From assembly GCA_964016885.1 (NCBI GenBank), contig OZ024744.1, positions 111,972,001-112,036,000 of the forward strand: 64,000 bases of DNA, written 5' to 3'. Source of the stretch: Eledone cirrhosa (lineage: Eukaryota). The position numbers and the translations under genes are program-made. Below, piece by piece: positions 20,781 to 52,760 of the stretch (position 1 is its first letter; each line of letters opens with the position of its first letter). The notes beneath the pieces were generated by a model that had not been told where the DNA came from, made no database searches, and worked only from the letters and a program-made list of their open reading frames with translations.

Positions 20781-21250
20781 AAGCAAAAGGGATATTCAAT
20801 TTGTTGGTAAATCAACAAATATAAATGTTTATAACTGATTCAGAGCACTCAACAAGTTTTCCTAAGTATAATATTCAATGATATTAAATAAATGGAAACT
20901 ATATTTATAAAACCATATTTATTCTATTATATATATTTCAAGGGTACCAAAACTTTGGTACGCTCTCATCAGATAAAATACAAAGTTTGTTTTATAAATA
21001 TTGACATAACCAAGAAAAGATACCTTAACGGTTCAAGTTTTTCTTGGATATCCAAGAAAAACTTGAACCGTTAAGGTATCTTTTGTTTTGGGTTATGTCA
21101 AAATTTCTTGGTTATGTCAATAATTATAAAACAAAATTTGTATTTTTATCTGATGACAGCGTACCAAAGTTTTGGTACTCTTGAAATATATATAATAGAA
21201 TATATATGGTTTTATAAATATAGTTTCCATTTATTTAATATCATTGAATA
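20781..21250. mobile_element. Fold-back double-hammerhead element (PLE terminal-repeat derived)
   Basis: Palindrome 20872-21250 centred on GGAT|ATCC (21049/21050). HHR on the minus strand at 20920-20980 and on the plus strand at 21142-21201. An unpaired ~90-nt tail runs into (TA)n. Confidence 0.8.
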
Positions 21251-21317
21251 TATATATATTCTTTATACATTCACTCGTGTAGGACACCTCGGTTATTTTT
21301 CATTTTGTAAAAAAAAC

Positions 21318-23580
21318 CTACAAAGCGAGGACCAAAAACGTGAGGTGTTCAGGAGCTAGGCAATGTGTCAAGGAAAACCGTGATATTGTGTGTACTTAAT
21401 GATGATGGCGTACTTGCCATCACTGACGCTGATAAGAAGGTAGCTTGGAAGTGTCACTACGAAAGGCTACTAAATGAGGAGAATAAATGGGAGAAAGACA
21501 GTCTCCCCCACATCGACCCAATAGAGGGACCAGCAGTGTTAGTCGAAGGTAGTATAATAAGTAAGGCAATCAAAGATATGAAGACGGGTAAGGCGGCTGG
21601 GCCTTCGGAAATAGTTGCTGAGATACTGAAAGCCTCTGGAACGGTAGGACACACCATGGTCACCCGGATAGTAAACCAAGTCATACAGAATGGGGTTGTT
21701 CCGAAGGACTGGCGTAGCAGCATCATCATGAACTGCTATAAGGGTAAAGGAGACGCCCTTGATAGGAGTAACTATAGAGGCATTAAATTAATCGGCCAGG
21801 TCATGAAGGTCACGGAAAAAGTAATAGCGCAACTAATCAGAGAGAGAGTTGATCTAGATGAAATGCAGTTCGGGTTTGTATCAGGCAAAAGTACCACAGA
21901 CGCTCTTTTCATTGTACGACAACTACAGGAGAAGTACCTAGCTAAAAGTAAACTCCTATACTTAGCTTTTGTCGACTTGGAGAAAGCCTTCGACAGAGTT
22001 CCCCGTTCCATTATCTGGTGGGCTCTTAGAAAACTAGGTGTTGATGAATGGCTTGTGAGAGCTATACAAGCCATGTATAAAGAAACAGTCAGCAAGGTTA
22101 GAATTAACAACGAATATAGTGAAGAGTTTAGCGTAAAAGTTTGTGTTCATCAGGGCTCTGTTCTTAGCCCCCTACTATTTATTATTGCCCTTCAGGCTAT
22201 AACAGTGGAGTTCAAGACCGGCTGCCCATGGGAACTCCTATACGCAGATGATCTAACGCTCATAACTGAATCAATGGCCGAGCTAGAGAAGAAATTCCAA
22301 ACATGGAAGCACGGCCTAGAATCAAAAGGCCTTAAAATTAACCTGGCTAAGACTAAAGTTCTAGTTTGTAGGAAAGAAAATAAGGCGCCGGTCCCTTCCG
22401 GGAAATGGCTATGCTCAGTGTGTAGGAAAGGCGTAGGTAGAAACTCCATTTTATGTCCCAAATGCAAAATATGGGTGCATAAAAGATGTAGTGGGATCAC
22501 AGGTAAGCTAACTAAGAACACAGATTTTACATGTGGCCGGTGCTCTGGTGCAATAAGTAGCAGCAAGTGCCCACTAAATACTAGCTCTTTCAATTGCGCA
22601 GAGGGTTCTATAGAAATAGTGGACAGCTTCCGTTACCTGGGTGACAAAATTAGCAGTGGGGAGGGTGCTCTGAAAGTACAGTAGCTAGAGTCAGAACTGG
22701 ATGGAAAAAGTTCAGAGATCTTATACCACTATTAGCCACTAAAGGGTTCTCCCTAAAAATGAAAGGCAGGCTGTATGATGCCTGCATACGAACAGCAATG
22801 TTGCATGGCAGCGAGACCTGGGCATTGTGTACAGAGGATATACGCAGACTAGAGAGGACCGAAGCTTGCATGCTCCGCTGGATGTGTAATAGTAATATAC
22901 GTGAACGGCAAAGCATAAACGAACTAAGGGAAAAATTAGAAATAAGAGGGATCAGATGCTGTTTACTCGAGAGAAGGCTACGTTGGTATGGTCACGTGGT
23001 GCGCATGAAAGACGACAGCTGTATAAAAAAGTGCAGGGCAATAAAGATAGACGGTAGTCACGGAATAGGCAGACCTAGAAAAACTTGGGACGACCTGATA
23101 AATTCCGACCTCACACACTTACACCTCACCAAGACAATGTCACTGGACCGAGATCTTTGGTGGTACTCAGTAATAGAGAAGACCCGCCTTACCTAAATAC
23201 AAAGTAAAACCTACTACAGTCAGTAGGCATCTCTAACAAAATATATCCCCACCACCCCCGTCCCATCCACACCGCCCCTTTCAATGTAAAGTTATGTTGA
23301 TGTCACAACATCCAGGCCGAAACAAATGAGATCGTGTAGGTGTCACGACAAAAAAAAACACACAGTCCACGCTGTAATGTGGCCGTGTAGGCAACACGGC
23401 AAAAACCTCCGAGTCCCACACTGTAAATGTGGTTGGTGTTAGAAAGGGCATCCAGCTGTTGAAAACCCGCCAGACAGTCCTATGCGAGCAAGACAACCAC
23501 TCTTGCCTCAAGTGGGAAAACTCCCGTCTAAACCCATGCAAGCGTGGAACATGGACGTTAAACGATGATGATGATGATGA
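21318..23580 (+). mobile_element. 5'-truncated RTE-clade LINE, best-preserved copy
   Basis: ORF 21365-22684 contains YKGKGD, QFGF, FVDLEKAFDRV, QGSVLSP, YADD and FRYLG. A frameshift near 22660 precedes ORF 22759-23196 (RRLRWYGHV, GRPRKTW). A 3'UTR and (GAT)n tail follow. Confidence 0.95.
21365..22684 (+). pseudogene. Non-LTR reverse transcriptase fragment with PHD-like zinc-finger insert
   Basis: YADD at 22241-22252; C-x2-C...C-x2-C-x4-H-x2-C...C-x2-C at 22412-22543. Confidence 0.9.
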
Positions 23581-23708
23581 TATATGTATATATGTATGTA
23601 TTTGTAACGGCTTGAGTAGGCAATTGTTAGTACATGTGGTTGCAGTGTTGAGCTTACAGATTCAATGTTGTGGGTTTAATTCCAAGACTGGGTTCTTTCT
23701 CATTACTC

Positions 23709-24270
23709 CAGTCAACTGAACTGGGAGTTAATCCAGTGATGGACAGTCAAATGAACTGGGCGTTAATCCAGCGATGGACAGTCAACTGAACTGGGCGTTA
23801 ATTCAGTGATGGCCAGTCAACTGAACTGGGAGTTAATCCAGTAATGGACAGTCAGCTGAACTAGGAGTTAATCCAGTGATGGACAGTCAACTGAACTGGG
23901 AGTTAATCCAGTGATGGACAGTCAACTGAACTGGGAGTTAATCCAGTGATGGACAGTCAACTGAACTGGGCGTTAATCCAGTGATGGACAGTCAACTGAA
24001 CTGGGAGTTAATCCAGTGATGGACAGTCAACTGAACTGGGAGTTAATCCAGTGATGGACAGTCAACTGAACTGGGAGTTAATCCAGTGATGGACAGTCAA
24101 CTGAACTGGGAGTTAATCCAGTAATGGACAGTCAGCTGAACTGGGAGTTAATCCAGTGATGGACAGTCAACTGAACTGGGCGTTAATCCAGTGATGGACA
24201 GTCAACTGAACTGGGCGTTAATCCAGTGATGGACAGTCAACTGAACTGGGCGTTAATCCAGTGATGGACA
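23709..24270. repeat. 35-bp minisatellite CAGTCAACTGAACTGGGAGTTAATCCAGTGATGGA, about 16 copies
   Basis: Period 35 (23711, 23746, 23781...). Confidence 0.95.
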
Positions 24271-50752: not shown

Positions 50753-51535
50753 GAAAAAGCGACAGCCAAAGATTTGAAATTCCTTTAAAGTATTTATTCA
50801 GCAGGCACTAATAGAACTTCAGCTTTCCAGCCTTCTGGCGCTTCATTCAATATTGTATACATATACATATATATTGATTAGATTACATGGATTGATTTTA
50901 AGCTACACTCTACAGAATATAAAATAGTGCTATAAGGTCTCTCTAATGATTCCATCAGAGTACATATTCTTCTATGAAATATGTATATATATATATATAT
51001 ATACATATACATACATGTATACATATATATATATATATATATACTCACATACACATACATACATATATATATACATACATACATATATAGTGTGTTTTGA
51101 ATTACAGGAGTTGAAAACCACTTTGGTGCCATGTATACAATCTATGAACAAATGGAAAATACATAATAACCGGAAAAAATATTCTTTTACTATATACACC
51201 ATGTGAGATATTTAGTTACCTAAATTATCTCTAGGTGTGCTGTTTGTACAATCCTTACTCCTGTTGAGAAACCCTGGGATTCTGTGACACAGCCACTAAT
51301 TTATGGTGAAACAAACTCTACCTGTAGTTTGTCCAGGAGTTCAATAGTTATTGAAATAGTTGGTACATTTTAATCCATCTTTTTCCAGTTATTATGTATT
51401 TTCCGTTTTTTTCGTAGATTATATATATATTGCACTATAGTGGTTTTTCAACCCATGTACTTCAAAACAAACTTCTTTCTGTGTATATTTCTATATATTA
51501 TATTATAAAGTGCTCGGTTTTTATACTTTGAGTTC

Positions 51536-52212
51536 ATTAATTACAGGGTATTACTGGTACTTTATTTTATCGACCCCGTAAAGATGAAAGGCAACGCCGA
51601 GGTTAACTTTGCCTTTCAACATTACGGGGGGTCGATAAAATAAAGTACCAGTAATGCACTGGGTAATTGCTGGCCTTGTGCCAAAAGTAGAAACAATTAA
51701 TTACAGGGTATTAATACGAGTCTTTAACTCTGCTTTTTATTTGCATTTCATTTGCCAACACAAGAGCAAGAATGAGGAGCTCATACTACTGACATGGCTT
51801 AAAAGAGACTGTTTGCATCGGATTGGCAGTATCGGTAGAGGGTCGGATACCATGCTTTGACGCATAGAGTTATGGCCCTTGCCATTCTGAGCTCAAATCC
51901 CACCGAGGTTAACTTTGCCTTTCATCCTTATGGGGTTGATAAAATAAAGTACAAGTAATGCACTGGGTAATTGCCAAAAGTAGAAACAATTATTAATATT
52001 CGAAAAACTTAGATTACATTTATATATATATAAAATAATTGTTTCTACTTTAGGCACAAGGCCAGTGCATTACTGGTACTTTATTTTATCGACCCCGTAA
52101 GGATGAAAGGCAAAGTCAACCTCGGCGGGATTTGAACTCAGACTGTAAAGGGACGTAACTATGCTGGAAAGCATGGCGTCGAACCCTCTACCGATACTGC
52201 CAATCCACCGCC
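51536..52212. mobile_element. SINE B copies, including one with an inverted 5' duplication
   Basis: Fold-back copy at 51551-51698, plus copy at 51820-51995 and minus copy at 52036-52212. Confidence 0.85.
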
Positions 52213-52251
52213 CTTTATAAAATAATATGTATATTTATAAAATAATATTAT

Positions 52252-52760
52252 AAAATAATATGTGTAAGTCAAACATGTTAAATTTGGCTTCGTTCATTCT
52301 AATTCTCTGTTATATATATTTCAGTGACAGCCATTATTGGCTGTGACCTCATCAGGCAGTAAGAATTAAGGCAGAAAAAACAGGAAAACATGGTGCTGTA
52401 ATGTGTTCTCAAAGGAACTGGAATGATATGATTCCAGTTCCTTTGAGGACTAACAACACACCCAGGAGCTGGACATATCGATGAATTAACAGGGTAGAAC
52501 AAACACATTACAGCATCAAGTTTTCCTGTTTTTTCTGCCTTAATTCTTACTGTCTGATGAGGTCACAGAGAATAATGGCTGTCACTGAAATATATATAGC
52601 AGCAAATTAGAATGAATGAAGCCAACTTTAATATGTTTGACTTACACATATTATTTTACATTACTCTGGAGTGAACAAACCAACCTGCGCACTTCGTCGA
52701 GTGCTCCAACCTGCATACTGAGGTGTCAGTAAACAACCAACACATACTAAAAAAAAATAT
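52252..52760. mobile_element. Fold-back double-hammerhead element
   Basis: Arms at 52252-52406 and 52503-52657. Minus HHR at 52307-52359 and plus HHR at 52550-52602 (CTGATGA-ggtcacag...ctgtcact-GAAA-tatata-TA). Inner hairpin at 52408-52447; ~100-nt tail into (TA)n. Confidence 0.85.

What the first reader, a model, noticed from the sequence alone, without database searches (positions are those of the whole stretch)
20781..52760. Recurrent ORF-less fold-back elements carrying a hammerhead ribozyme on each strand
Seen: at least six short palindromic elements, at 20781-21250, 32225-32636, 35271-35605, 42301-42630, ~46740-47350 (duplicated) and 52252-52760. They come from about four unrelated sequence families but share one architecture: outward-pointing type I hammerheads on opposite strands, a ~90-100 nt tail on only one arm, and the tail ending in or near (TA)n. 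In the 35271 copy the plus-strand HHR is only a half, and in the 46740 copy the minus-strand HHR is decayed. Established: Penelope-like elements carry minimal HHRs in their pseudo-LTRs, have a 3' tail and can insert with inverted 5' ends. Inference: these are either ultra-truncated PLE insertions or a non-autonomous, retrozyme-like class mobilised by the RT/GIY-YIG of PLEs like the two in this window. Transcription in either direction gives a long hairpin that contains, and could sequester, a sense ribozyme.
Basis: partly seen in the sequence, partly recalled or inferred. Interest (0 to 1): 0.88.

Follow-up and report, generated by a model that had tools for sequence, protein, structure and literature searches.

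The report
Double-ended Penelope retrotransposon leader copies
These small ribozyme-bearing palindromes are short head-to-head pieces of known Penelope-like jumping genes, each likely made when two reverse transcriptases copy the front end of one RNA into both strands of a TA repeat, and one ribozyme-only repeat family ends the same way.

Summary
The fold-backs and their type I hammerheads are real. They belong to five families. Four (20781, 32225, 35271/42301, 52252) are the pLTR plus tail of coding RT + GIY-YIG Penelope-like elements (PLEs) with Hydra-clade motifs. The junction differs from copy to copy: one shared junction pair among 100 short fold-backs. So they are not a new fixed mobile unit, and the architecture is in print (2013, 2014, 2021).

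Two details I did not find in print. First, arm lengths are not random: in three families they pile up at a cap 272-325 nt from the tail end, at an initiator-like C|A. Either arm can be the longer one, and the two arms of a copy share variants. This fits two reverse transcriptases starting at the two known internal start sites and running off the RNA's 5' end (inferred). Second, the 46740 family is a closed ~342-nt head-to-tail monomer with a canonical hammerhead (retrozyme-like), with no coding parent seen, yet it ends like a PLE insertion. Cleavage and expression were not tested.

The parts
20781..21256 (.). Family B fold-back. Tail arm on minus strand (tail about 20781-20866, hammerhead core starts 20972); tail-less arm on plus (core 21150). 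Centre near 21049, about 3 nt short of the family cap.
32225..32640 (.). Family C fold-back. Tail arm on minus (core 32428); plus arm core 32525 carries CTGAAGC.
35271..35610 (.). Family A fold-back. Tail arm on plus, cut inside the hammerhead; tail-less minus arm is the longer one and has a whole core (35379).
42301..42630 (.). Family A fold-back, arms 99% alike. Tail arm on minus (core 42489), tail-less arm on plus (core 42531), (TA)n on both sides.
46675..47380 (.). Family E, retrozyme-like ~342-nt monomer. Minus arm of more than one unit with tail (46675-47135, decayed core 46896); plus arm 47166 to about 47380 with canonical hammerhead (core 47212).
48050..48755 (.). Second copy of the family E insertion inside a 1375-nt tandem duplication (46259-47913 against 47635-49288).
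52251..52760 (.). Family D fold-back. Tail arm on plus (core 52554) reaches the family cap (324 nt); tail-less arm on minus (core 52355).
20174..20351 (+). Single pLTR related to family B (82%), no tail, TA on both sides, hammerhead core 20256; starts at the position matching the family B cap.
25697..27057 (-). 5'-truncated, frameshifted PLE frames (RT with YRDD, then GIY-YIG with CxCx5C linker). Related to, but not the parent of, the fold-backs.
29142..32210 (+). 5'-truncated PLE (broken RT end, GIY-YIG frame 29510-30244, long 3' UTR, hammerhead core 32106, end in TA). Not the parent of the fold-backs.

Best explanation
The palindromes are head-to-head pairs of the pLTR-and-tail segment of Penelope-like retrotransposons in (TA)n, each likely made in one insertion event by two reverse transcriptases that would copy the 5' leader of the same RNA. 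Shown: four families continue into GIY-YIG frames elsewhere; outer ends are fixed at two sites 80-100 nt apart; inner junctions are copy-specific, with a cap at a pyrimidine-run C|A; either arm can be the longer; arms of one copy are closer to each other than to other copies. Inferred: (1) the element's endonuclease nicks both strands of (TA)n; (2) one RT starts at the tail end and one at the pLTR end, helped by TA-like bases at both sites; (3) most use the pLTR-ORF junction near the front of the mRNA, so they stop at or before the RNA 5' end (the cap), while a minority use a downstream pLTR and reach the ORF; (4) the two cDNA ends are joined, often by short overlaps. The hammerhead on each strand is a passenger, and most fold-backs would be dead ends. 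Family E (46740) is a non-coding ~342-nt head-to-tail monomer of retrozyme type that likely borrows the same machinery. Odds: PLE insertion products 0.95; the two-start, run-off mechanism about 0.6; family E moved by a PLE about 0.8.
For: Parents: family A unit of 3924 nt with pLTR-ORF-pLTR and an open 733-aa frame holding RWR, DKT, YRDD, CxCx5C, GIY-YIG-like, CxxC and CxH motifs (L046). Sense-strand endonuclease upstream in 7 of 30 B loci and 7 of 30 C loci, and in 10 of 30 loci found with D upstream sequence. Size continuum in A: 275-2917 nt, plus a 5.3-kb fold-back (L048). Tail-only searches: complete fold-backs in 20 of 30 (A), 13 of 30 (B), 18 of 30 (D), each count including the window's own copy. 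Cap: 9 of 29, 10 of 29 and 9 of 28 tail arms end in a 21-nt window at 276, 272 and 325 nt; such a pile-up arose in at most 0.13% of 4000 constant-hazard simulations at each of five mean lengths. All three caps sit at C|A after a pyrimidine-rich run; in L297 and L276 both arms reach the cap. Of 71 A-D fold-backs the tail arm is longer in 42, the tail-less arm in 19, equal in 10; both arms have the tail in 1. Arm divergence within against between loci: 0.6 vs 4.6% (27 of 27), 2.8 vs 5.0% (6 of 7), 8.9 vs 12.2% (11 of 11), 8.1 vs 13.7% (20 of 21). In vitro, an anole PLE cuts and extends both strands and starts at two internal sites that bound the tail (PMC11167929). Family E: 52 of 56 sense arms end at one of two sites, at least 15 of 56 have a head-to-head arm, 12 of 56 run upstream into the previous unit.
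Against: No RNA data place a transcription start at the cap; a strong RT pause would look the same. 10 of 29 A tail arms pass the cap, so many copies come from longer templates. The cap was not tested with an unbiased query in family C, whose arm ends look more spread. One pair of loci (L022, L024) shares an unusual junction with different flanks, which hints at occasional copying of a whole fold-back. Arm similarity could also come from later gene conversion. Junction overlaps of 1-15 nt were seen in only 30 of 71 fold-backs, by rough BLAST ends. The anole PLE starts at sites not homologous to the target, whereas TA-like bases follow both start sites in family A. A TA run follows only 28 of the 52 site-defined ends in E. 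E shows no clear homology to the A-D ends, so its partner is unknown. Samples are the 30 best-scoring loci per search, not random draws.
Confidence: 0.6

Rival explanations
1. Self-priming: one template (antisense RNA or first cDNA) folds back at its 3' end and is copied, and the endonuclease later trims the tail from one side. This was proposed for head-to-head palindromes in rotifer PLEs.
For: PMC3846280 passages; PMC8557442 ascribes the tail to endonuclease resolution. Small snap-back palindromes sit at some D junctions, including the window copy. Arms share variants.
Against: In 19 of 71 fold-backs the tail-less arm reaches further upstream while the other arm alone has the tail, so neither arm contains the other. 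Tail ends map to RT start sites on a sense template in vitro.
Confidence: 0.2
2. Ordinary 5' truncation of long cDNAs primed at the element's 3' pLTR, with inversion; the cap is an RT pause site, not the RNA 5' end.
For: Size continuum up to 5.3 kb; 10 of 29 A tail arms pass the cap.
Against: The cap falls at an initiator-like C|A in three families, D being unrelated in sequence to A and B. Only 3 of 29 B and 2 of 28 D tail arms pass it. The 5' pLTR of the full unit L046 begins within a few bases of it.
Confidence: 0.13
3. The fold-back itself is a fixed non-autonomous mobile unit, a new retrozyme-like class.
For: Fold-backs are 43-67% of copies in tail-only samples; sizes cluster at 300-500 nt; L022 and L024 share a junction.
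Against: One such pair among 100 short fold-back loci (A 40, B 20, C 8, D 32). Coding parents exist for four families. Stem I of the sense ribozyme has predicted pairing probability 0.000 in all 11 arm-strand cases folded.
Confidence: 0.05
4. Assembly or amplification artefact, or chance palindromes in AT-rich DNA.
For: Fold-back chimeras are a known artefact of some library methods (own knowledge).
Against: Arms differ by up to about 9% in old families; ends map to fixed element sites; a 142-nt contig with no differences spans the 46740 junction in both runs laid, which may be the assembly's own sample; the descriptor control gives 10 against 0.023.
Confidence: 0.02

Closest known systems
Inverted 5'-truncated copies of endonuclease-bearing PLEs (PMC8557442 Fig. 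2 legend; PMC3846280; PMC2377424)
   Same: Head-to-head inverted pLTR, tail on one end only, AT-rich or (TA)n target, hammerhead in the pLTR.
   Different: Here both arms are often so short that the ORF is absent; tails are 80-100 nt against 30-40 bp; arm length has a family-specific cap, which I did not find described.
Opposite-strand pairs of minimal hammerheads in Schistosoma mansoni (PMC4209133)
   Same: 'Dual min-HHRs ... (~100-700 bp) but in opposite strands', ascribed to truncated PLEs: the same observation.
   Different: The parts I read give no junction, tail or parent analysis of those pairs.
Hydra clade of PLEs (PMC8557442)
   Same: C-terminal endonuclease, RWK-like and DKT motifs, CxCx5C linker, CxxC and CxH motifs, (TA)n target, hammerhead.
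   Different: The family A unit is 3.9 kb (long 3' UTR) against under 3 kb; no tree with reference Hydra proteins was built.
Metazoan non-LTR retrozymes (PMC7229834; bioRxiv 10.64898/2026.07.22.740005)
   Same: Family E: ~342-nt head-to-tail unit, GC 35-38%, canonical type I hammerhead with palindromic stem III, no ORF seen. Both papers link retrozymes to PLEs.
   Different: Only partial tandems and dimers were seen, none with two intact cores. The link here rests on insertion ends (two start sites, tail, inverted arm); the preprint uses phylogeny and co-occurrence and has no hit for 'tail' or 'junction'.
L1 twin priming (recalled, no call)
   Same: Two primers from opposite target strands give a head-to-head inversion.
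   Different: In L1 the two cDNAs copy different parts of the RNA; here they overlap and begin at two fixed sites.

Membership tests
EN+ Penelope-like element (families A-D) | Sense arm continuous with an ORF holding RT and C-terminal GIY-YIG endonuclease | tested here: met
   A: L046, L047. Endonuclease upstream in B 7 of 30, C 7 of 30, D 10 of 30; RT linkage shown fully only for A. Atlas names a GIY-YIG cluster (23% of members) for the window's related frame. Pfam scans found no RT or GIY-YIG family in these frames.
EN+ Penelope-like element (families A-D) | pLTR-ORF-pLTR partial tandem with tail equal to the sequence just past the pLTR | tested here: met
   L046, period 3924 nt, tail runs into the ORF leader; shown for A only.
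Hydra clade | RWK-like, DKT, CxCx5C, CxxC, CxH motifs and (TA)n target | tested here: met
   All in L046; CxCx5C, CxxC, CxH in C and D parents; CxxC and CxH only in the B stretch held. Absence of CCHH judged by eye.
Hydra clade | Phylogenetic placement with reference Hydra RTs | not tested
   No labelled reference proteins were fetched; the 614 homologues are mostly unnamed.
Type I hammerhead ribozyme | Conserved core with stems I and II kept through sequence change | tested here: met
   Cores intact in 37 of 39, 29 of 30, 20 of 30, 25 of 30, 31 of 56 (A-E). Stem I pairs differ between families yet pair (T-A or C-G; G-T, A-T, G-C or T-A). Within families two-sided changes are rare.
Type I hammerhead ribozyme | Palindromic stem III for dimeric folding | tested here: met
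   Three different palindromes; Watson-Crick palindromic in 39 of 39, 30 of 30, 16 of 30, 22 of 30, 53 of 56.
Type I hammerhead ribozyme | Self-cleavage | not testable with these tools
   Needs an in vitro assay.
Non-LTR retrozyme (family E) | 150-450-nt head-to-tail unit, low GC, canonical type I hammerhead | tested here: met
   Period 305-365 nt in 12 of 30 loci; monomer tiling; GC 35-38%; 4-bp stem II and 7-bp stem I.
Non-LTR retrozyme (family E) | No coding parent | tested here: inconclusive
   No shared foreign upstream sequence seen in 56 loci; the protein search was run on the first 30 only. A rare parent is not excluded.
Non-LTR retrozyme (family E) | [quoted passage not shown] | tested here: not met
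   Dimers L179 and L183 each have one mutated core (four loci checked by pattern); no two of 62 exact 32-mer hits lie about 342 nt apart.
Non-LTR retrozyme (family E) | Highly self-paired circular RNA | tested here: inconclusive
   Circular folds of three monomers give z of -4.4 to -6.9 against 30 rough shuffles; no RNA evidence.
New fixed fold-back element class | Same fold-back junction in many dispersed copies | tested here: not met
   One pair among 100 loci.

The most novel reading that the evidence does not exclude
Most insertions of these PLEs are copies of the RNA's 5' leader, made by twin priming at the two internal start sites and run-off at the transcript start. The fold-backs would then record both the start site and the mechanism behind PLE inverted repeats, and a ~342-nt retrozyme carries the same two-start footprint, direct genomic evidence that PLE proteins insert retrozymes.
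Probability: 0.5. Interest if true: 0.7.

Novelty: new member of a known kind. Interest (0 to 1): 0.45.

Why it matters
How PLEs form their inverted repeats and tails is named as an open question in PMC8557442. These copies give a large natural sample with sharp predictions: a transcript start at a stated base, two cDNAs per target, and head-to-head joining. The family E footprint would add junction-level support to the proposal that PLEs move animal retrozymes. For annotation, such palindromes should be filed as PLE pieces, not as MITEs, microRNA hairpins or a new class.

Tried and rejected
The repeat finder was swamped by microsatellites. Rfam listed no hammerhead among the 150 matches shown. 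Pfam did not recognise the PLE frames and the PDB sequence search found nothing; the PLE call rests on motifs, the Atlas lead and structure. No RNA holder was listed, which says nothing about expression; the two runs laid are contigs of one sample. The first family A sample was drawn with a fold-back query and is biased to about 330 nt, so tail-only searches were added. For eight minus-strand hits the wrong flank was fetched. The hazard figures missed one family A arm and were replaced, which also drops L240 as a duplicate of L239. Arm ends at the hammerhead cleavage site were looked for by eye and were not evident. The window's two PLE fragments were rejected as parents. Look-ups of earlier findings returned nothing.
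Full report
Setting. The window is G000:C28:111972001-112036000 in a 3.0-Gb animal genome. The best named homologues of the parent RT are from Argonauta hians, which points to a mollusc host. The window is rich in (TA)n and repeats.

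Observation. All six elements are present as inverted arms pointing outwards. A type I hammerhead descriptor gives 10 hits against a mean of 0.023 in 300 shuffles. Across five families the stem I pairs change in sequence but keep pairing, and stem III is one of three different palindromes. This is the form that PMC4209133 describes as folding into dimers. Families A-D also keep a C-C mismatch at the fourth position of stem II. Cleavage was not tested.

Parents. I searched the genome with each family. Family A (35271, 42301): single arms run on through a long 3' UTR into an RT and GIY-YIG frame; L046 is a whole pLTR-ORF-pLTR unit of 3924 nt with an open 733-aa frame and the Hydra-clade motifs listed in PMC8557442. 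Families B (20781) and C (32225) each reach a sense-strand endonuclease in 7 of 30 loci. Family D (52252) does so in 1 of the first 30 loci, and in 10 of 30 loci found with its upstream sequence, 8 of which also hold the D end downstream. The two PLE fragments in the window are relatives, not parents.

Fixed or variable. Outer ends are fixed: one arm ends at the tail end, the other 80-100 nt inside in 63 of 71 fold-backs. Inner junctions vary: among 100 short fold-back loci only L022 and L024 share an unusual junction. Sizes run from 144 nt to 5.3 kb. The fold-back is therefore made at each insertion and is not, as a rule, the mobile unit. This architecture is drawn in PMC8557442, described in PMC3846280, and opposite-strand hammerhead pairs 100-700 bp apart were noted in PMC4209133.

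A cap on arm length. Tail-only queries remove the bias for upstream length. Fold-backs are then 20, 13 and 18 of 30 loci in A, B and D. The window was chosen from the data, so I used a scan statistic: such a pile-up arose in at most 0.13% of simulations of constant-hazard truncation. Each cap sits at C|A after a pyrimidine-rich run, like the initiator-like TCACT named in PMC3846280; Penelope has an internal promoter (PMC2377424). I infer that the cap is the RNA 5' end. A pause site is not excluded.

Mechanism. In 19 of 71 fold-backs the tail-less arm reaches further upstream, so each arm holds sequence the other lacks. Arms of one copy are closer to each other than to the median of other copies in 64 of 66 cases. 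An anole PLE cuts and extends both strands and starts at two internal sites that bound the tail (PMC11167929). The simplest reading is two RT starts, one from each nicked strand of (TA)n, on one RNA or on RNAs of one source, followed by head-to-head joining. Because the start sites also lie at the pLTR-ORF junction near the front of the mRNA, most products would be short. That paper found that the template needs ORF sequence past the start sites; fold-backs lack it and would be dead ends. In a read-through RNA the sense ribozyme is predicted to be paired with the other arm (stem I probability 0.000 in 11 of 11). All steps after the sequence patterns are inferred.

Family E (46740). Its copies tile with one ~342-nt monomer. 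Twelve of 56 run upstream into the end of the previous unit, 7 stop near the unit start, and no shared foreign upstream sequence was seen. The hammerhead is canonical. This fits non-LTR retrozymes (PMC7229834), though no tandem with two intact cores was found, so I say 'retrozyme-like'. Its ends are PLE-like: 52 of 56 at two sites about 50 nt apart, 28 of these followed by a TA run, and at least 15 of 56 with a head-to-head arm (the script misses overlapping arms). A 2026 preprint already argues that retrozymes are non-autonomous PLE derivatives, from phylogeny and co-occurrence; it has no junction analysis in its main text. E's partner element was not found.

What I saw of each paper. PMC11167929: parts 1-2 of 4. 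PMC4209133: parts 1-2 of 4. PMC7229834: part 2 of 6 and passages. bioRxiv 10.64898/2026.07.22.740005: parts 1-3 of 5 and passages; its supplements were not seen and may bear on the E claim. PMC8557442, PMC3846280, PMC2377424: passages only. L1 twin priming is recalled. The statement that the cap, the two-start explanation of the inversion and the retrozyme end footprint were not found in print rests on eight searches of a library that lacks most subscription papers, including older PLE reviews.

Verdict. Real, and mostly explained by known PLE biology; not a new class. The added value is mechanistic and testable. Interest 0.45.

Noticed in passing
window 24485-24610: A smaller fold-back in (TA)n with a one-sided extension of about 60 nt and a ~30-bp arm, no hammerhead core; related sequence occurs in 21 of 228 fetched loci. 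Probably another PLE family.
   Followed up: partly
window 35049-35222: Fold-back ending in (TA)n with what looks like the 3' half of a small hammerhead; related sequence in 34 of 228 loci. Probably a further abundant PLE-type family.
   Followed up: partly
window 24705-24760 and 27030-27072: The two ends of the minus-strand PLE fragment; similar short ends occur in 23 and 17 of 228 loci. (TA)n tracts collect several PLE families side by side.
   Followed up: partly
window 1629-1699: Short minus-strand copy of the 20174-20351 pLTR family, cut inside the hammerhead.
   Followed up: no
window 46259-49288: 1375-nt tandem duplication at 99.4% identity bounded by copies of a ~280-340-nt dispersed repeat; unequal crossover or assembly duplication.
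   Followed up: no
window 51820-52206, 39045-39435, 51539-51668, 54256-54342, 37437-37558: Other palindromes without a hammerhead hit; several are inverted pairs of dispersed repeats.
   Followed up: no
window 21344-22684 and 40156-41534: LINE-type RT frames followed by a PHD finger.
   Followed up: no
L022 and L024: Two family A fold-backs with different flanks share one rearranged junction and an altered hammerhead core; possible re-copying of a whole fold-back.
   Followed up: partly
hammerheads of families A-D: A C-C mismatch at the fourth position of stem II is kept in all four families despite different stem sequences; it may be a feature of this clade's ribozyme.
   Followed up: no
L036 flank: Frames that read like a PIF1-type helicase, suggesting a Helitron (by eye; label recalled).
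   Followed up: no
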